NCBI GenBank assembly: GCA_964508005.1
Contig: CAZDTG010000002.1
Coordinates: 41,307 to 105,306 of the forward strand
Reading direction: 5' to 3'
Length of the DNA: 64,000 bases
Origin: an uncultured Steroidobacteraceae bacterium
GTDB taxonomy: Bacteria > Pseudomonadota > Gammaproteobacteria > Steroidobacterales > Steroidobacteraceae
Every line of letters starts with the position of its first letter. Within the stretch, counting starts at the first letter, position 1. The notes below the pieces were generated by a model, which was not told the origin of the DNA, made no database searches, and worked only from the letters and a program-made list of their open reading frames with translations. This document shows positions 45,631 to 59,923 of the stretch, in pieces. The translations under genes were made by a program, and so were the position numbers.

Positions 45631-45672
45631 CTACGGCGGCTGTTGAACGGGTGAGAGGGCGCGACCAAAGTA

Positions 45673-45921
45673 TGAAACCGGACGATCACACAGCGGGAGC
45701 TTCGTAATCAGTCTGCAGCCGTGCTTCGCGAAGTGGAGGCGGGTCGAACGATCGTGGTCACCCGCAACGGCACGCCTGTGGCAGAGCTGCGGCCCATTCG
45801 ACCGCGCCGGTTCGTACCTCGCGCAACCCTTGCCGAAGCGGCAGTGCGCGCGCCTCGGATCGACGCTGATCGGTTTCGTGCAGATCTCGATGCTGTGATC
45901 GATCAGCGCATCGATGGCTGA
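45673..45921 (+). pseudogene. Phd/YefM-VapB-type antitoxin gene with disrupted 5' end
   Basis: Frame 1 reads NRTITQRELRNQSAAVLREVEAGRTIVVTRNGTPVAELRP..., a Phd-type N-terminus. The only ATG (45672) is in another frame (MKPDD...), so either a 1-nt indel or GTG 45721 gives a truncated product. Confidence 0.55.
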
Positions 45922-46028
45922 ACCGACGAGAGGGCTTCCTCGACACATCGGCGGTGATCGACCACGACGTGATCGATCCCGCATTGCTGCCCGATCAGTC
46001 TGCGATCTCCGCCATAAAGACTGCCTGA
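45914..46028 (+). pseudogene. VapC (PIN) toxin remnant, frameshifted and truncated
   Basis: ATGGCTGA overlaps the antitoxin stop. MAEPTRGL in frame 2 continues, after one extra nucleotide at 45938, as LDTSAVIDHDVIDPALLPDQSAISAI in frame 3 (the PIN N-terminal LDTS motif). It stops at 46026-46028, and the rest is missing before the LysR gene end at 46061. Confidence 0.55.
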
Positions 46029-46060
46029 GGACTTTCGGCAGAACGAGTCCGCTGCCCATG

Positions 46061-54986: not shown

Positions 54987-56651
54987 ATGCCGAAGATTCT
55001 CTTGTTTCGCCTCCCTCACGATTTGAGCGCGAGGCTCGTGTCGGAACTTTCTCGCGCAGGGTACGAAGCTGCGGCGCCGGAATCCGCGGATGTGCGCACA
55101 GTTCTTCAGCATGAGCCTGATCTGATCCTGCTGCAGACGGATGTACGCACACTCGACTGCTGTGGTCTTGTCACTCAGCTCAAAGGCAACGAGGCCACAG
55201 CGCCAGTGAAGATAATCCTTCTGGCCGATGGTGGGCCTTTGGAGCGCAGCCGTGCCCTCGACCTGGGTGCGGACGACGTCCTGAGCATTCCCTTTGAGCC
55301 CGTTGAGCTCTTCGCCCGAATCCGGGCGCACCTGCGAGAGAAAGCGCCGGACGATCGCTTGCGTTTGGAGGTGCTCGACGCCAAGAGGAAAGAGCTCGAA
55401 GCTGAAGCGGCGCTGACAGCAATCGTCGCGCAAAAAGAGACGGGGAAGAGACGCTGGATTGCACTTGGGGTGGTAACCGCTCTAGCGGTGATCGGCGTAG
55501 GTATTGCTGTTCGAAACGCCCAGGTAAGCAGCAAGTCAAACGCGAGCCTGGTTTTGCAGCTGGAGAGTCTCCGCTCGCAGATACTCACTCGAGACCAGCT
55601 TCTGGAACGCGCCCAAAAGAGCCGCGAGGCACGCGATCAGGAATTGACAGTTTCGGTGAGCAAGCAATTGGAAGCATTGCGGGCAGAGAGCGCAGACCTG
55701 CGGAACAAGATCTCCACGTCGGCCGGGCCCTCCCTGTCTGATCTTGACAACCGTTTGAAGCAAACCGACTCCCGGATCGGAAAACTCGAGAACGAGTCGC
55801 GCATCGCACAAGAGATCGTCCGGGATTATTCAAACAGCGTTTGCCTGATCTACGCGATTCTCGCTTTTCACGACAAGAAGACTGGCGCTCTGCTCAAGTT
55901 CGCCGGCATTGACGCGAATGGCAATCCCGTCGCCGATAGCAAGGGAAAGCTCATTGTCACCACGGAAGGCGGCGGCCCGCCCGTGCACATAGACGTATTT
56001 GGAAGCGGCTTTCTGATCGATACCGCCGGTCACATCCTCACCAATCATCACGTACTCGAACCATGGTGGCACAACGCTGAGGCGATCCCTGTGCCCAGCG
56101 ATTCTTTCGAGCCGACCATCTGGTCGATGTGGGCTTATTTTCCGGGGAACGAAACGCCAATGCCTCTGCGCGTGCAAGGCTTGAGTGAGGACTCTGACCT
56201 TGGGCTGGCAGCAGTCGATCTGCCTGAGAGCCATCCGAGGCCTGTCACAATCGATCCGCAAGTCGCCATTTCCGGCAGCCCGGTGGTCTTGATTGGATAC
56301 CCCACCGGACTCGAAGGGATTATTGCCCGTATCGACGAGCCCACGCTCAAACGGATCGCACAGGCAACCGGGAACAGGACGGAGGATCTCGTGCAAGAGC
56401 TTGCACGAAGAAAGCTGATCCGACCGCTGGTGACGCAGGGCCATCTTGGCGTTGTTGGCCCCGATCGACTGGTCTACGACGCACAAACAACTTCTGGCGG
56501 GTCCGGTGGCCCAGTATTCAATGCCAGCGGAAAAGTGATCGGAGTGAACTTCGCCATCCTGTCGGGCTTCTCTGGCTCGAATTTCGCTGTCCCCATCTCA
56601 CACGCTGCAAAGATGCTTGAAACGTCAAAATCCGCGAAAGCAGCGCGTTGA
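54987..56651 (+). CDS. Pseudo-receiver / TM / coiled-coil / trypsin-like (S1, HtrA-type) serine protease fusion
   Basis: ATG 54987 (MPKILLF...). Domains in order: a CheY-like fold with degenerate active-site positions, one TM span (RRWIALGVVTALAVIGVGIAV), a roughly 120-aa heptad-rich region, and a protease triad context (LTNHHV, DSDLGLAAV, TSGGSGGPVF). The first 112 codons of the track ORF overlie IS debris and are rejected. Confidence 0.85.
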   Translation: MPKILLFRLPHDLSARLVSELSRAGYEAAAPESADVRTVLQHEPDLILLQTDVRTLDCCGLVTQLKGNEATAPVKIILLADGGPLERSRALDLGADDVLSIPFEPVELFARIRAHLREKAPDDRLRLEVLDAKRKELEAEAALTAIVAQKETGKRRWIALGVVTALAVIGVGIAVRNAQVSSKSNASLVLQLESLRSQILTRDQLLERAQKSREARDQELTVSVSKQLEALRAESADLRNKISTSAGPSLSDLDNRLKQTDSRIGKLENESRIAQEIVRDYSNSVCLIYAILAFHDKKTGALLKFAGIDANGNPVADSKGKLIVTTEGGGPPVHIDVFGSGFLIDTAGHILTNHHVLEPWWHNAEAIPVPSDSFEPTIWSMWAYFPGNETPMPLRVQGLSEDSDLGLAAVDLPESHPRPVTIDPQVAISGSPVVLIGYPTGLEGIIARIDEPTLKRIAQATGNRTEDLVQELARRKLIRPLVTQGHLGVVGPDRLVYDAQTTSGGSGGPVFNASGKVIGVNFAILSGFSGSNFAVPISHAAKMLETSKSAKAAR

Positions 56652-56921
56652 TGCTCGTTTGGAAGGTCACCGGCACACGATCGACCGCGTGCGAATGCGC
56701 TTCGGGGCTCCCCCAACACCATCAACGATCACTTAGATACCTGGTGGGCCAAGCTCGGCTCTCGTCGGTCGACTCGCAACTCGTTTGCGCCCGGCCCAAC
56801 GAGGAATCAGGTCGATGGCAGCGAACAGTCCGCGATCCGAGCAGATTGTGTTGGGGGATGAAGGAGTTTCCCGCAAGGTTGGCAACGCATCGGTTCGTTG
56901 AGATCCCGGGGCGCCGTGGCG

Positions 56922-57413
56922 CTACGGGATAATGCCGAGTCTGATCTTGGTCCTGATCTCACTGAGCCAGACCTCGCGGTAATGCTGAGGGAGTGCGGAG
57001 AAGACCGCCGGCTGCGCGCCGCAGCCCTGCAGAAGTCGCTCGAGGGAGATCACGGCATCCAGCCAGGCGAGAGTGTTGCAGCCAACGAGTGCCGCCTTGT
57101 CGGTAGTGGTGACCCAGAGAAGGTTGGCACTCGGGCTTTCGTGTGCCTTCAGCCATGTGAGAAGGTCCCGCTCGCCCGGGTCGAGTGTCAGAAGCCGCGG
57201 GTGGCCAGTGGCGAACGTGGCCAGATCCCGTTTGGACGGGGTGTGCACGGCCGCGAGCCCGGCTTTCAACTCCGGCAAAGGTACTGGAACTCTTCTCGGG
57301 TTGAGCGGATCGCCCGTCTGCGTCTCCGAGACCACCGCGCTCACGGTCTCGATGCGGTATGCGTTCGCGAGGAGCTTCCAGCATCCGAGCTCGAAGGCCG
57401 TGAACACCATCAT
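56922..57413 (-). CDS. Hypothetical protein, possibly PIN-like
   Basis: 163 aa, 26 nt downstream of the XRE-ImmA gene. LDPGERDLLTWL and VTTTDKAAL resemble PIN acidic motifs. An in-frame LDT lies immediately upstream of the ATG, reachable only from a CTG (57422) or ATT start. Confidence 0.55.
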   Translation of the reverse strand: MMVFTAFELGCWKLLANAYRIETVSAVVSETQTGDPLNPRRVPVPLPELKAGLAAVHTPSKRDLATFATGHPRLLTLDPGERDLLTWLKAHESPSANLLWVTTTDKAALVGCNTLAWLDAVISLERLLQGCGAQPAVFSALPQHYREVWLSEIRTKIRLGIIP

Positions 57414-57439
57414 GGTGTCCAGCCTTGACTCACGAGCGG

Positions 57440-58546
57440 TTAGAATTCAAACGGGGCCGCGAGCTCGTAGGAGGCAAACAGGGCTGCCAGCTGCTCCCCA
57501 TCCAGAGCGAGTGTCTTCGCGACCTTCCGCGCCGACAACCGCCCGCGGTCAAGCGCGCTATGGAGCGCACGCACGAAAGACTCCGAGTAGAGCCGAGGCA
57601 GTGTCTGCTTCACGGTCACGGGCCGGCGGACCAGCGCCTCGTGCACCTCATCGTCGATACGCCCGAGCCCGAGGAGCCGCCAGCCGAGCGCCGAGGTCGA
57701 CACACGAAGGCGCTCTGCGACCGCGCGAAGTCGCGCGACGTCTGCAGGCTCGGTGACGAGCTGGTCCAGAACCACTCGTGGCATGAGCAGCGAGGAGGCG
57801 AAGTTGTTGGCGAGTTGTTCGACCCGCTTGCGGCTGGGAGTTCCACGGTCATCCGTGGTGTTGGATTCGCGGCGCTCAGGCTCCATCGCATCCCACGTGA
57901 GCGCGTGAAACAACTCGTGCGCGAGCGTGTATGCGCGGCGCGTCTCGCCCTCCCGGCGATTGAGCAGGATGCAGGTCAGGTCTTCCAGATGGCACGTCGC
58001 GCCTGACAGAGAACCGTCGCCAAATACGCCCGGATCAACCATGAGCACCGGGATGTCGAGCTCTCGTTCGATCGTTTCGAGCAGACTCCCGGCCGGAACC
58101 TCGCCGAGGCCGAGCTCCTGAGCGAGTCTCTCCGCCCGCGCCTGTGAAGCTTCGAACGTCGACTCGCTCGACAGCCGAAGCCCGCGCTTGAGCGCGCTCG
58201 CATCTGACGGCGTTTGGTCACGCAGCCAGCGCAGTATGCCAACGAGCTGATTCGTGCGGTTTTCGAAGTCGTCCAGCGTCTCGTCCCGAACCTCCGGCGA
58301 TACGCGCCAGTTGTACTTCGCCTCGCCGGCGACGGAGAAGGGATCGACAAAGTAGTCGATGGGCCGGTCGAAGGCGTCCGAGAGGATCACCAACTCATCC
58401 GGCTTCACGCCGCGCTTGCCATTCTCCAGGTCCGACACGGACTGGCGATTCTCCAGCCCGAGCAGGGCGGCGAGATCGTCTTGCGTACGGCCGGCTGCCT
58501 CGCGGGCGGCGCGCACGCGAAACCCAATATGGCGAGTTGATTCCAT
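57440..58546 (-). CDS. XRE-family HTH fused to ImmA/IrrE (COG2856) zinc metallopeptidase
   Basis: ATG 58546 follows GGAGGAAG. The HTH is IGFRVRAAREAAGRTQDDLAALLGLENRQSVSDLENGKR. The HEXXH motif is in YTLAHELFHALTW. The first 124 codons of the track ORF are rejected. Confidence 0.85.
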   Translation of the reverse strand: MESTRHIGFRVRAAREAAGRTQDDLAALLGLENRQSVSDLENGKRGVKPDELVILSDAFDRPIDYFVDPFSVAGEAKYNWRVSPEVRDETLDDFENRTNQLVGILRWLRDQTPSDASALKRGLRLSSESTFEASQARAERLAQELGLGEVPAGSLLETIERELDIPVLMVDPGVFGDGSLSGATCHLEDLTCILLNRREGETRRAYTLAHELFHALTWDAMEPERRESNTTDDRGTPSRKRVEQLANNFASSLLMPRVVLDQLVTEPADVARLRAVAERLRVSTSALGWRLLGLGRIDDEVHEALVRRPVTVKQTLPRLYSESFVRALHSALDRGRLSARKVAKTLALDGEQLAALFASYELAAPFEF

Positions 58547-58576
58547 CGGCTCTTCCTCCTGTCCACAGTATACGAC

Positions 58577-58625
58577 TTGCGAACATCGAAACGCAAGTTT
58601 ACATGGCAAGGCAGTATTTGCAAGA
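58577..58625. promoter_or_regulatory. Candidate operator half-sites between the divergent XRE-ImmA gene and the 290-aa gene
   Basis: CTTGCG (58577-58582) and CGCAAG (58593-58598) form a 6-bp inverted repeat with a 10-nt spacer. A third related site, TTGCAAG, is at 58619-58625. Confidence 0.35.
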
Positions 58626-58735
58626 TCGGAGGGCTGAGTACCAGAAGTTGGGTACCCACTGTCTGTGCCCAAGAGCTGTCGGTGGCGCGAGATTGGCGGC
58701 TTCGCTATTGCGTGGCATTGAAAGGACGGTCGTAT

Positions 58736-59608
58736 ATGAGCATTACTGATGGTGAGGGCTATATCGTGGCCGAGTTCCGGCCCCAAGGTGTCTATGGGGT
58801 ACGTGGTCTCGGAATGAACCGCCTCCAGTTCGGACTGGAGTTCCAGATCAACGCCAGTCGTGCCGGGGGCGCTGCGCTGAGCAGTGCCGTCTGCTTCGTT
58901 TGGGCCGGCCGAACGCAAGCCGATGTGAGGCCTCTCGGCGTCGCGACTATGGAAACGAGCTGGTACGTGGAAACTACAGACTACGCTCGCCGTGACACGG
59001 TGTCTGCGTATTTAGACTTGAGCTTCGAGCAGTTGGAAGCGCTCGAGCGAATGCGCGAAGGCGGATCGCTCTTTTTCAAGTTGGATCTGCGTGTCTTGGT
59101 CCATTCACGTCAACGTGGTCTACAGCGGGGTGATCAGCAGTCGTGGTTCGAGGCGTCGTTGAGCACTTGGTCGAAGGTTCTTGAGCAGATCGGATACAGC
59201 GAAACACTGCTGCTCGGCCTAGAATTGCCGGTGCAAGGAGTGCCAACAGAGCTGCATGGTGCAGCGAGTCAGTTACGCGAGGCGCACCGGGATCTGATAG
59301 CGGGTCGCTTTGACGGCACGGTCGCTCGAGTACGGCTGGCGATAGATACGGTGCTCGGCTTTGATAGCCGACCTCAGGTACTTCAGGAGTTTTCTGGAAG
59401 CAGCGCGAGTCGCGAACAGATGTCAAAACGTTCCCGAGCAGACTTGGTCCGCATCGCGGTTCGACACTACACACACTTGGCACATCATGTCGACGATTCC
59501 GGCGCACCGGAAACCTTTAGCAGACACGATGCTCAATTTGCGCTGGCTGGAGCGACGGCAGCGATATGGGATGCTGTTACCGAGTTCCGCAGGAGCCGAA
59601 GCCAATAG
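58736..59608 (+). CDS. Hypothetical 290-aa protein (beta-rich N-half, helical C-half with Rx4-6H motifs)
   Basis: ATG 58736 follows aaaggacgg. I recognise no family. The C-terminal LVRIAVRHYTHLAHH contains RIAVRH (Rx4H) and RHYTHLAH (Rx6H). It is divergent from the XRE-ImmA gene. Confidence 0.55.
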   Translation: MSITDGEGYIVAEFRPQGVYGVRGLGMNRLQFGLEFQINASRAGGAALSSAVCFVWAGRTQADVRPLGVATMETSWYVETTDYARRDTVSAYLDLSFEQLEALERMREGGSLFFKLDLRVLVHSRQRGLQRGDQQSWFEASLSTWSKVLEQIGYSETLLLGLELPVQGVPTELHGAASQLREAHRDLIAGRFDGTVARVRLAIDTVLGFDSRPQVLQEFSGSSASREQMSKRSRADLVRIAVRHYTHLAHHVDDSGAPETFSRHDAQFALAGATAAIWDAVTEFRRSRSQ

Positions 59609-59677
59609 GGGAGCTACCTCGACTAACGCCGTTTCCTCATCGCAGGCGGCCAAGAACACGGCAGCGTGTATAACTTT

Positions 59678-59702
59678 TAGTGCCGTTTGGTACTAAATTT
59701 TG
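59678..59702 (+). terminator. Possible intrinsic terminator after the 290-aa gene
   Basis: tagtgcc-gttt-ggtacta forms a 7-bp stem with one G-U pair, followed by aattttg. It lies 70 nt after the stop at 59608. Confidence 0.4.
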
Positions 59703-59923
59703 TGCCCAATAGCTATCGCAAGGCCCGGACGGCGCGCCATAGTCTCGACATTACATAATATACATTATGCGCAATTGAGATACCGCCTGTGGCGCAAGCG
59801 GTACCGCTGATCGGATCGCACCTTATATACAGCGCCACGCCCCGCAATCTCCCGCGCCCCTTTAGTACAGTCCCGGCCGGCCACGCATTGTGGCCAGGCC
59901 CACGGTATGTGGTGAGGGACTGC

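What the first reader, a model, noticed from the sequence alone, without database searches (positions are those of the whole stretch)
56922..59608. XRE-ImmA/IrrE fusion flanked by two uncharacterised genes: candidate three-gene switch/effector module
A single 368-aa protein combines an XRE HTH and a COG2856-type HEXXH peptidase (AHELFH).

Established paradigms for this pair are ImmR/ImmA of ICEBs1 and DdrO/IrrE. In both, the peptidase cleaves a repressor to trigger a response, and such pairs have also been proposed as parts of TA-like or defence modules.

Here the fusion protein has two partners:
- Downstream, 26 nt away, is a 163-aa protein with PIN-like acidic motifs (LDPGERDLL, TTDKAAL). 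The canonical N-terminal LDT exists in frame just before its ATG, reachable only from CTG 57422 or an ATT codon.
- Divergently placed is a 290-aa protein of unknown family. Its helical C-half carries RIAVRH/RHYTHLAH (Rx4-6H, reminiscent of HEPN RNases). This reading is speculative.

No phage structural or integrase genes are nearby.
Basis: inference. Interest (0 to 1): 0.6.

Follow-up and report, generated by a model that had tools for sequence, protein, structure and literature searches.

The report
Rosmer-type PIN cassette, toxin start deleted
The regulator-protease gene and the small gene after it form a two-gene toxin-antitoxin or anti-phage cassette of a known kind (RosmerTA-like, with a PIN nuclease toxin) whose toxin lost its start to a 13-base deletion here, and the third, divergent gene is an unrelated, uncharacterised gene that is not part of the module.

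Summary
They are not a three-gene module.

**Two-gene cassette.** The 368-aa XRE-HTH + M78 peptidase (PADLOC RmrA 1e-19) and the 163-aa ORF form a discrete 1.77-kb cassette (window 56869 to about 58640).
- In about 125 homologous loci, mostly temperate phages, the same pair sits 11-14 nt apart.
- The pair lies behind a conserved operator, CTTGC-N12-GCAAG (64 of 76 distinct upstream regions; window 58576-58597).
- None of these loci carries a relative of the 290-aa gene.
- A 97%-identical contig has the cassette between entirely different flanks.

**Toxin.** The small protein folds as a PIN domain but matches no Pfam or PADLOC model. The odd 'LDT before the ATG' has a simple cause. Sister contigs (99.4% identical) carry 13 more bases and an in-frame GTG start (MSQGRRVFVDT...). 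The window's deletion frameshifts that start. Another lineage has a nonsense codon there.

**290-aa gene.** It belongs to a large unnamed family (1853 clusters). It has an Ig-like beta-sandwich plus a weakly HEPN/DUF4145-like helical domain (R243-x7-H251), and its neighbours vary.

**Verdict.** This is a new member of a known kind (RosmerTA / HTH-COG2856 + PIN). The scan has noted similar cassettes in at least 23 other genomes.

The parts
56869..58640 (-). The mobile unit: a 1.77-kb cassette made of operator/promoter, the XRE-M78 antitoxin-regulator gene and the PIN-like toxin gene.
   Evidence: Contig L026 (97.4% identical) matches the window only over 56869-58632 and is unrelated on both sides. 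In the alignment, the shared sequence runs a few bases further, to about 58640.
57440..58546 (-). 368-aa XRE-HTH + M78 (ImmA/IrrE, COG2856) zinc-peptidase fusion with HEXXH = HELFH. It is an RmrA-like antitoxin and autorepressor.
   Evidence: Family matches: Pfam HTH_3 and Peptidase_M78; PADLOC RmrA models, best 8.6e-20 over residues 5-305; phrog_2439 at 2e-34, full length. It is 54-56% identical end to end to the partner proteins of phage-borne homologues.
56922..57413 (-). 163-aa ORF, the remaining body of a PIN-like toxin gene. It lacks strand beta1 and the first catalytic Asp.
   Evidence: AF2 pLDDT is 89.6 and pTM 0.84. Foldseek returns PIN domains, best E 3.3e-3, TM 0.56/0.66. The family alignment conserves D10, E41, D89/E92 and D116 in the extended numbering. 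There is no Pfam, NCBIfam, PADLOC or PHROG model hit.
57410..57439 (-). Damaged toxin 5' end.
- The remnant GTG start (57433-57431) is now out of frame and reads M-S-Q-G-W-T-P-stop.
- TGA 57412-57410 overlaps ATG 57413 (ATGA).
- The 13-nt deletion junction lies between 57422 and 57421.
- An AAGG (57426-57423) now sits 9 nt before the ATG.
   Evidence: Sister contigs L024, L025, L027 and L028 carry an extra CGACGAGTCTTCG here. That gives an in-frame GTG start and the N-terminus MSQGRRVFVDTMVV. L026 instead has CGA to TGA at codon 6.
58576..58597 (.). Operator: the inverted repeat CTTGCG-N10-CGCAAG (= CTTGC-N12-GCAAG), 51 nt upstream of the antitoxin ATG. With its 7-nt arms it spans 58575-58598.
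   Evidence: Seen. The same CTTGC-N12-GCAAG occurs in 64 of 76 distinct upstream regions of homologous XRE-M78 genes, most often at -52. Shuffled sequences give 0.0007 hits per sequence. It is the only hit in the 64-kb window, and 104 of 113 hits in 925 kb of related loci lie at this position.
58618..58623 (.). TTGCAA palindrome, a possible extra half-site. It lies inside the cassette.
   Evidence: Its function is inferred only.
58736..59608 (+). 290-aa gene that is not part of the module.
- N-terminal Ig-like beta-sandwich, about residues 1-155.
- C-terminal helical domain, about residues 165-290, with invariant R200, R234, R243 (codon 59462-59464), H251 (codon 59486-59488) and R263.
- This copy has an in-frame 9-nt deletion (MDT) at 59341|59342.
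   Evidence: The family has 33 clusters by word search and 1853 clusters at E<=1e-3 by profile search. AF2 pLDDT is 86.9. Foldseek hits fall on the beta-sandwich only. Signals to HEPN, DUF4145 and AbiJ are weak. Its neighbours vary. The deletion relative to L024 is shown.

Best explanation
The finding covers two independent things.

**1. A solitary two-gene cassette of the RosmerTA / 'HTH-COG2856 + PIN-like' type.**
- The XRE-M78 protein binds the CTTGC-N12-GCAAG operator that overlaps its own promoter, and so autoregulates the operon (inferred).
- It also neutralises the PIN-like nuclease encoded 6-12 nt downstream. Its zinc-peptidase domain would be the switch that releases the toxin on some signal, such as phage infection. 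This is inferred by analogy with RmrA, RipB and ImmA.
- The cassette descends from a module that sits next to the serine integrase in a widespread group of temperate phages.
- In this genome a 13-nt deletion has frameshifted the toxin's start. Only a 163-aa product lacking beta1 and the first catalytic Asp can be made from ATG 57413. The toxin is therefore most likely dead or attenuated, and the antitoxin-regulator is left as the functional part.

**2. The divergent 290-aa gene is a separate accessory gene.**
- It belongs to a large unnamed family with an Ig-like beta-sandwich and a HEPN/DUF4145-like domain.
- It is a candidate stand-alone RNase effector of the abortive-infection type.
- It merely abuts the cassette.
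For: **Shown**
- Domain content and RmrA-model matches.
- PIN fold.
- The pair is conserved with an 11-14 nt gap in 116 loci by strict criteria, and in all but one (L168) of the roughly 125 loci that have upstream DNA.
- 53 of those loci are IMG/VR viral contigs.
- Conserved synteny: serine integrase <- | -> XRE-M78 -> PIN -> 759-aa -> HTH_17 -> Bro-N Ant -> Sak4.
- Operator conserved in sequence, spacing and position.
- The cassette recurs between different flanks in L026.
- The 13-nt deletion relative to four 99.4%-identical contigs restores, when present, an in-frame GTG and the family N-terminus. L026 has an independent nonsense codon.
- Of 9 conserved family positions in the first 19 residues the window differs at 7, against 6 of 35 elsewhere.
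- No co-occurrence with the 290-aa family.
- The 290-aa family was not found in viral contigs.
- All three genes are absent at DNA level from 40 other species of the genus.

**From papers**
- XRE + Zn-peptidase proteins are antitoxins of RosmerTA systems and pair with diverse toxins, including PIN-like ones (PMC10440598; bioRxiv 10.1101/2022.05.11.491447; RipAB, 10.1101/2025.09.02.673660).
- HTH-DUF955 + PIN-like operons were predicted in 2009 and 2017 (PMC2701414, PMC5499597).
Against: - No toxicity, neutralisation, DNA-binding or defence data exist for this family. Every functional step is inferred.
- The toxin matches no RmrT model in PADLOC and no Pfam PIN or DUF4411 model.
- The Foldseek E-values are modest (3e-3).
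- The 13-nt deletion is seen in one MAG assembly only.
- The rest of the toxin ORF is intact, and its divergence from relatives is within the family's normal range: 45.6% identity against about 51% expected. So decay, if real, is recent.
- In the phages the pair is co-directional with early genes, which also fits a role in the lysogeny switch.
Confidence: 0.68

Rival explanations
1. One reading: the three genes form one switch/effector module. The XRE-M78 protein would control both the PIN-like protein and the divergent 290-aa HEPN-like effector.
For: - The genes are divergent neighbours that share a 190-nt intergenic region containing the operator.
- The same arrangement is found in the 99.4%-identical contig L024.
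- One distant relative of the 290-aa gene (L037) has a small HTH ORF upstream.
Against: - 0 of 133 PIN-family loci contain a relative of the 290-aa gene.
- 0 of 20 loci of the 290-aa family contain the PIN-like or an XRE-M78 gene.
- L026 has the cassette with a vapC-like gene in place of the 290-aa gene. The homology breakpoint (about 58640) lies between the operator and the 290-aa start.
- L024 is the same strain-level lineage as the window, so it is not independent evidence.
Confidence: 0.04
2. Relic phage immunity region. In the phages the XRE-M78 protein would be the prophage master repressor, a fused ImmR-ImmA that self-cleaves on induction, and the PIN-like protein an accessory of the lysogeny switch. 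The window cassette would be what remains of a decayed prophage. It would act, if at all, as a superinfection-immunity repressor and not as a toxin-antitoxin pair.
For: - The pair sits directly beside the serine integrase, at the head of the early-gene block, in about 70-80 related phage loci. No other XRE repressor was seen between the integrase and the early genes.
- There is a single conserved operator at the promoter.
- ImmR/ImmA provides a precedent (PMC2701414; PMC10440598).
Against: - The cassette occurs alone, without any phage genes, between two different pairs of flanks. It also occurs in non-phage settings next to AbiE, RES and a TraW-like gene.
- The very tight 12-nt coupling to a nuclease with a conserved active site is typical of toxin-antitoxin pairs.
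- The operator occurs only once per locus, so there is no sign of a multi-operator switch.
- Related XRE-M78 proteins are proven antitoxins (RmrA, RipB).
Confidence: 0.18
3. The toxin is not broken. Either the 13-nt gap is an assembly or consensus error of the MAG, or translation from CTG 57422, ATT 57446 or ATG 57413 still yields an active nuclease.
For: - The ORF body is intact and keeps 31 of 44 family-conserved positions, including E41, D89, E92 and D116.
- An AAGG lies 9 nt before ATG 57413.
- Four sister contigs have the 13 nt.
- The same MAG has a second small deletion 2 kb away, which could hint at consensus problems.
Against: - The catalytic Asp and the central beta1 strand cannot be included from any ATG, GTG or TTG start.
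- The residues around them are degenerate: 7 of 9 conserved positions are changed.
- An independent nonsense mutation in L026 shows that loss of this N-terminus recurs in nature.
- Deletions of 13 nt and 9 nt are not typical sequencing errors (general knowledge).
Confidence: 0.15

Closest known systems
RosmerTA (RmrT/RmrA; Millman et al. 2022, bioRxiv 10.1101/2022.05.11.491447; Gordonia phage Kita RmrTA, Ernits et al. 2023, PMC10440598; RipAB of S. pneumoniae, bioRxiv 10.1101/2025.09.02.673660)
   Same: - A two-gene operon whose antitoxin is an XRE-HTH + ImmA-type Zn-peptidase.
- P0001 matches 16 PADLOC RmrA models, best 8.6e-20.
- Frequently phage-borne.
- Toxins are interchangeable, and PIN-like toxins have been noted (PMC10440598).
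   Different: - The toxin matches no RmrT model.
- It is a PIN-like nuclease, not a membrane-depolarising toxin (Kita RmrT) or a DnaN-targeting one (RipA).
- Neither defence nor toxicity has been tested.
- In this genome the toxin start is deleted.
Predicted 'three-component' TA: HTH + DUF955/COG2856 protease + PIN-like toxin (Makarova et al. 2009, PMC2701414; Matelska et al. 2017, PMC5499597: DUF4411, COG2405, PIN_14, PIN_20, PIN_26)
   Same: - A fused HTH-COG2856 gene directly upstream of a small VapC-like PIN protein with four conserved acidic residues.
- Abundant in phages and prophages.
   Different: - No member of this toxin family matches Pfam DUF4411 or PIN, even at E<=10.
- Whether it equals one of Matelska's non-Pfam clusters (PIN_14, PIN_20, PIN_26) could not be tested.
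ImmR/ImmA of ICEBs1 and DdrO/IrrE
   Same: The same two domains are involved: an XRE repressor and an M78 peptidase. In those systems the peptidase cleaves the repressor.
   Different: - Here the two domains are fused in one chain and coupled to a nuclease gene.
- No separate repressor substrate is present.
- No integrase or SOS-type regulon is adjacent in the window.
VapBC (PIN toxin with RHH/AbrB/Phd antitoxin)
   Same: - The toxin fold matches: Foldseek hits include VapC4 5h4g, VapC 3tnd and 9h6a.
- The operon is autoregulated with the antitoxin gene first.
   Different: - The antitoxin is a 368-aa HTH-peptidase, not a small DNA-binding protein.
- There is no sequence-level match to PF01850.
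For the 290-aa gene: RAZR / PD-T7-4 (Zn-finger + DUF4145 HEPN RNase; PMC13017515) and AbiJ-type HEPN Abi proteins (PMC3710099)
   Same: - A single polypeptide with an N-terminal non-catalytic domain and a C-terminal helical domain carrying a conserved Arg...His pair. R243-x7-H251 has the same spacing as RAZR R146/H154.
- Found in defence-island settings. In L015 a relative sits beside CBASS and a RAZR-like gene.
   Different: - The N-terminal domain is an Ig-like beta-sandwich, not a zinc ribbon.
- HMM matches to DUF4145, HEPN and AbiJ are all below family thresholds.
- The fold of the C-domain alone was not searched.

Membership tests
RosmerTA | Antitoxin with an N-terminal XRE HTH and a C-terminal ImmA/M78 Zn-peptidase (HEXXH) | tested here: met
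   Pfam HTH_3 at 4.4e-14 and Peptidase_M78 at 6.3e-14. PADLOC RmrA models match down to 8.6e-20 with near full-length coverage. HELFH is present.
RosmerTA | Adjacent, co-oriented toxin gene conserved as a pair | tested here: met
   The gap is 11-14 nt in 116 loci. The pair is present in all but one locus with upstream DNA.
RosmerTA | Toxin recognised by an RmrT model | tested here: not met
   No PADLOC hit for the window protein or for any of 8 relatives at E<=10. RmrT toxins are known to be heterogeneous, so this is a weak criterion.
RosmerTA | Toxin is toxic, antitoxin neutralises it, and the system protects against phage | not testable with these tools
   Requires expression and phage assays.
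PIN-like nuclease superfamily | PIN (Rossmannoid alpha/beta/alpha) fold | tested here: met
   AF2 pLDDT 89.6 and pTM 0.84. The top 34 Foldseek PDB hits are PIN domains, best E 3.3e-3, probability 1.0, TM 0.56/0.66. The modelled sequence includes 11 residues upstream of the ATG.
PIN-like nuclease superfamily | Four conserved acidic active-site residues | tested here: inconclusive
   The family conserves D10, E41, D89/E92 and D116. In the window copy D10 lies upstream of the only usable start, so this copy most likely lacks one of the four.
PIN-like nuclease superfamily | Match to a curated PIN-type HMM (PF01850, DUF4411 and others) | tested here: not met
   No Pfam or NCBIfam hit for any member. 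No PDB sequence-profile hit either.
ImmR/ImmA-type switch | A separate XRE repressor is cleaved by the M78 peptidase to derepress an element's genes | tested here: not met
   HTH and peptidase are one chain. There is no second XRE gene in the cassette and no element genes nearby. Cleavage itself cannot be tested here.
HEPN superfamily (for the 290-aa protein) | Conserved Arg...His catalytic motif (Rx4-6H; R-x7-H in DUF4145/RAZR) | tested here: met
R243 and H251 are invariant in the 25-sequence alignment, and H251 also in the 70-sequence one. H250 is at least 90% conserved, which gives Rx6H. hhalign aligns R243/H247/H251 with the RxxGNxxxH of DUF4145.
HEPN superfamily (for the 290-aa protein) | Significant sequence or profile similarity to a HEPN-clan family | tested here: inconclusive
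   - Of 70 members, 7 hit Pfam HEPN (best 0.011) and 5 hit DUF4145 (best 0.0017).
- Two members hit PADLOC AbiJ (1.1e-5) and one hit CARF_HEPN.
- The family consensus against DUF4145 gives E 0.033 over 5-86 of 88 positions.
- hhalign gives P 0.005 and score 15.8, against at most 8.4 in 30 column shuffles.
- All of these are below curated cut-offs.
HEPN superfamily (for the 290-aa protein) | Four-helix up-and-down bundle fold | not tested
   The model is helical from residue 171, but Foldseek hits were taken up by the beta-sandwich.

The most novel reading that the evidence does not exclude
The 290-aa gene may represent a large, unnamed family of single-gene abortive-infection RNases. The family has 1853 clusters at 50% identity, no Pfam, NCBIfam, PADLOC or PHROG model, and is rare and sporadic in genomes. 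In this reading, an Ig-like beta-sandwich sensor domain controls a divergent DUF4145/AbiJ-like HEPN domain (R243-x7-H251), by analogy with RAZR. A secondary possibility is that the XRE-M78/PIN pair is the lysogeny switch of a widespread group of serine-integrase temperate phages.
Probability: 0.3. Interest if true: 0.55.

Novelty: new member of a known kind. Interest (0 to 1): 0.3.

Why it matters
The cassette itself is ordinary, but three points have some value.
- The PIN-like toxin family has no model in Pfam or PADLOC, so annotation and defence-finding pipelines miss it. This is despite more than 100 occurrences, many of them in temperate phages.
- The conserved CTTGC-N12-GCAAG operator gives a directly testable binding site for this branch of XRE-M78 antitoxins.
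- Three natural alleles (intact GTG start, 13-nt deletion, nonsense codon) form a ready-made series for testing toxicity and how chromosomal copies are disarmed.

The neighbouring 290-aa family is a reasonable candidate for an undescribed HEPN-type defence gene.

Tried and rejected
- **HMM and PDB searches.** Pfam, NCBIfam, PADLOC and PHROG scans gave no hits for the 163-aa and 290-aa proteins. PDB sequence-profile searches gave nothing for the PIN-like family. For the 290-aa family they gave only a TPR-like hairpin hit, 2hr2 at 1e-5 on residues 171-216.
- **Foldseek on the 290-aa model.** Searches against PDB and BFVD returned only generic Ig-like beta-sandwich matches (ApaG, TMEM106B, LEA, Kir C-domains). 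They were uninformative about the helical domain.
- **The search for related loci.** I repeated the searches with the closer alignments A2 and A7.
- **My first account of the missing N-terminus.** I initially read it as about 16 nt lost relative to the phage homologues. The exact 13-nt deletion relative to sister contigs replaced that reading.
- **Relaxed-constraint test on the toxin.** Toxin identity given antitoxin identity fell within the family's range, so there is no support for long-term decay.
- **P0012's apparently short N-terminus.** This was a start-calling artefact. An in-frame TTG upstream gives ...AIILVDSM.
- **Prophage or ICE around the block.** None was found.


Full report
**1. 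Observation**

- 57440-58546 (-), 368 aa
- 56922-57413 (-), 163 aa, 26 nt downstream of the first
- 58736-59608 (+), 290 aa, divergent

The 368-aa protein matches Pfam HTH_3 (residues 11-66, 4.4e-14) and Peptidase_M78 (180-291, 6.3e-14), and it carries HELFH. It also matches 16 PADLOC RmrA models (best 8.6e-20, residues 5-305) and phrog_2439 over its full length (2e-34). RmrA is the antitoxin of RosmerTA. The other two proteins hit nothing in Pfam, NCBIfam, PADLOC or PHROGs.

**2. The 163-aa protein is PIN-like and strictly paired with the XRE-M78 gene**

- A word-based search found only 9 clusters. Their N-termini read MPKxRVFADTNVILE, and the window's in-frame 'DT' aligns exactly with this DTN.
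- An AF2 model of the 174-aa extended reading is confident (pLDDT 89.6, pTM 0.84). Its top 34 Foldseek PDB hits are all PIN domains: VapC4 5h4g/1v96, PAE2754, Shigella and F-plasmid VapC, Nob1 and Utp24. The best E is 3.3e-3, with TM 0.56/0.66.
- No member matches a Pfam PIN or DUF4411 model or any PADLOC model, nor any PDB sequence.
- Gene tables of eight contigs showed a 373-375-aa HTH_3 + Peptidase_M78 gene 12 nt upstream every time. The settings were mobile or defence-related: serine recombinase + DUF2924, Bro-N, AAA_24, TraW-like, AbiEii, RES.
- Pattern scans then fetched 80 metagenome loci (of 131 hits) and 53 IMG/VR viral loci.
- With my own HMMs, 116 loci have the XRE-M78 ORF directly upstream with a gap of 11-14 nt (102 of them at exactly 12). 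Of the 15 that failed my coordinate filter, 7 have the gene adjacent, 7 lack upstream DNA, and one (L168) has it on the other strand.
- One search pattern contained the DTN motif, so this sample is biased toward intact N-termini.
- The conserved neighbours identify a group of temperate phages: large serine integrase (phrog_95) <- | -> XRE-M78 -> PIN-like -> a 759-aa protein with no family -> HTH_17 -> phrog_2480 -> Bro-N anti-repressor -> Sak4-like AAA_24.
- P0001 is 54-56% identical end to end to these partner proteins.

**3. A conserved operator**

I confirmed it, with 7-nt arms spanning 58575-58598.
- The same CTTGC-N12-GCAAG, always with a 12-nt spacer, is present in 64 of 76 distinct upstream regions of the homologous genes. 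It lies most often at -52 from the ATG, and at -51 in the window.
- Shuffled sequences give 0.0007 hits per sequence.
- It occurs once in the 64-kb window. In 925 kb of related loci, 104 of 113 hits are at this position.
- This is strong evidence for a conserved cis-element. That the XRE domain binds it and autorepresses the operon is inference.

**4. The unit is two genes, not three**

- None of the 133 PIN-family loci has an ORF matching a profile of the 290-aa family within 6 kb.
- None of 20 loci carrying relatives of the 290-aa protein has the PIN-like gene or an XRE-M78 gene. One has a weak hit to a small HTH ORF.
- The neighbours of those relatives are varied:
  - a type II CBASS operon plus a Zn-ribbon-DUF4145 gene (L015)
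  - ThiF + JAB
  - PIN-TPR-GreABC
  - CHAT, lipase and caspase
  - a relaxase region
  - a KfrA_N-like gene
- Contig L026 (97.4% identical) matches the window only from 56869 to about 58640, that is operator + XRE-M78 + PIN-like gene. Beyond both ends it is unrelated.
- Upstream of the cassette L026 carries a PF01850 vapC-like gene. The DNA of that flank (query bases 358-689, from the gene's 5' part into the intergenic region) resembles window 45685-46017 at 82%.
- The breakpoint lies between the operator and the 290-aa start codon.
- Close relatives of the 290-aa protein were not found in IMG/VR, in contrast to the phage-rich PIN family.

**5. Why the toxin has no proper start**

- Four contigs that are 99.4% identical to the window over 4.55 kb (L024, L025, L027, L028) differ from it by six substitutions, all inside the cassette, and by two indels.
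- One indel is 13 nt (CGACGAGTCTTCG) between window positions 57422 and 57421. With it the spacer reads TAA-CCGCTC-GTG AGT CAA GGC CGA CGA GTC TTC GTG GAC ACC ATG.
- That gives an in-frame GTG 6 nt after the antitoxin stop and the N-terminus MSQGRRVFVDTMVV. This is the family's beta1 strand plus the catalytic Asp.
- In the window the deletion puts that GTG (57433-57431) out of frame. It now reads M-S-Q-G-W-T-P-stop, and the TGA overlaps ATG 57413 (ATGA).
- L026 has instead CGA to TGA at codon 6 of the same N-terminus. That is a second, independent hit.
- Of 9 family positions that are at least 95% conserved in the first 19 residues, the window differs at 7. Elsewhere it differs at 6 of 35.
- The rest of the ORF is intact and no more diverged than expected, so the damage looks recent.

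**6. The 290-aa protein**

- A profile search finds 1853 representative clusters at E<=1e-3, and 292 at E<=1e-30. Nearly all are about 285 aa and match end to end.
- In genomes the family is rare: 2 of 399 other genomes of the class.
- AF2 (pLDDT 86.9) gives a beta-sandwich (about residues 1-155) and six helices (171-289). Foldseek matches only Ig-like sandwiches.
- Invariant residues are R107, W145, A183, R200, R234 and H251. R243, R263, H247 and H250 are invariant or nearly so within the closer set. R238 of 'RIAVRH' is variable.
- Signals for a HEPN-clan relationship are individually weak but consistent:
  - Pfam HEPN in 7 and DUF4145 in 5 of 70 members
  - PADLOC AbiJ (1.1e-5) in 2 members and CARF_HEPN in 1
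  - the family consensus aligned collinearly to nearly the whole DUF4145 model, E 0.033
  - hhalign against an 8-sequence DUF4145 alignment: P 0.005, score 15.8, against at most 8.4 in 30 column shuffles and 4.4 for the reversed alignment
- That hhalign alignment pairs 'CR-x-ALE' (R200) with DUF4145's 'R-x-aLE'. It also pairs R243-x3-H247-x3-H251 with 'R-x-x-G-N-x-x-x-H'.
- DUF4145 is a HEPN family (PMC3710099). In RAZR its catalytic pair is R146/H154, the same R-x7-H spacing (PMC13017515).
- I therefore rate 'HEPN-like RNase domain' as plausible but unproven. The reading as a stand-alone abortive-infection effector is inference from architecture and neighbourhood.
- The window copy has an in-frame 9-nt deletion (MDT) just after R200, relative to L024.

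**7. Context**

- None of 40 other species of the genus has DNA matching 56922-59608. Only the protease gene to the left and the two-component genes to the right have relatives, and those sit in other contexts.
- The PIN-like family was not found in 40 relatives.
- The larger ORFs from 39.5 to 54.3 kb are housekeeping-type or accessory genes: DUF5666, PsiE, ADH, LysR, methyltransferase and SDR. No phage or ICE genes were seen.

**8. Comparison with what is known**

- Fused Xre-COG2856 genes in operons with PIN or RelE toxins, abundant in phages, were described in 2009 (PMC2701414).
- HTH-DUF955 + PIN-like operons (DUF4411, COG2405, PIN_14, PIN_20, PIN_26) were described in 2017 (PMC5499597).
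- The antitoxin role of the XRE-Zn-peptidase was shown for RosmerTA (10.1101/2022.05.11.491447; PMC10440598) and for RipAB (10.1101/2025.09.02.673660).
- The module here meets the architectural criteria of that class. Its toxin belongs to no catalogued model.
- The scan's own index lists similar XRE-M78 + PIN cassettes in at least 23 other genomes, all judged new members of a known kind. Those are unchecked notes and I do not count them as evidence.

**9. Verdict**

- The three-gene interpretation is not supported.
- The PIN-like reading is supported, and the 'LDT' oddity is explained by a 13-nt deletion.
- Overall this is a new member of a known kind, of modest interest.

Noticed in passing
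window 59341|59342 (within 58736-59608): The window's 290-aa gene lacks 9 nt (codons M-D-T, ATGGACACC next to ATCGACACC) that are present in the 99.4%-identical contig L024 and in all relatives. The site is just after invariant R200, and the pattern looks like repeat slippage.
   Followed up: partly
window 55191-59742 vs L024: All six substitutions between the window and L024 fall inside the 1.77-kb cassette: 4 in the antitoxin, 1 in the toxin and 1 in the intergenic region. None falls in the 2.8 kb of flanking genes. This suggests faster turnover or recombination of the cassette, or a mixed-strain consensus.
   Followed up: no
L026:1-999 and window about 45685-46017: In L026 the cassette abuts a PF01850 (VapC-type PIN) gene. 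The DNA of that flank (query bases 358-689) is 82% identical to window 45685-46017, 11 kb away from the cassette. So the region between has been rearranged between lineages. The window ORF 45631-46059 (-) itself gave no Pfam hit.
   Followed up: partly
L137:6209-8878 and 82 other loci (e.g. L004:5171-7450): A protein of about 759 aa with no Pfam or PHROG match is conserved directly downstream of the PIN-like gene in 83 phage-type loci.
   Followed up: no
L015:1-5876: A relative of the 290-aa gene (79% identical) sits after a type II CBASS operon (DncV-like NTase, E1/E2 ThiF, JAB, SAVED-HNH) and a 252-aa Zn-ribbon + DUF4145 protein with the architecture of RAZR/PD-T7-4.
   Followed up: partly
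L010:5001-9799; L013:1439-8445: Other relatives of the 290-aa gene overlap by 4 nt with a 1298-aa PIN-TPR-GreABC protein, or lie inside a CHAT / lipase / caspase operon. These may be lineage-specific partnerships.
   Followed up: no
L168:5800-7762: This is the one locus where the XRE-M78 gene lies downstream of the PIN-like gene on the opposite strand.
   Followed up: no
L022:889-1403: The gene call for P0012 (155 aa, starting MIVIE) misses an in-frame TTG start that restores ...AIILVDSM. Database entries of this family can therefore be N-terminally mis-called, as also happened for the 163-aa call in L024-L028.
   Followed up: yes
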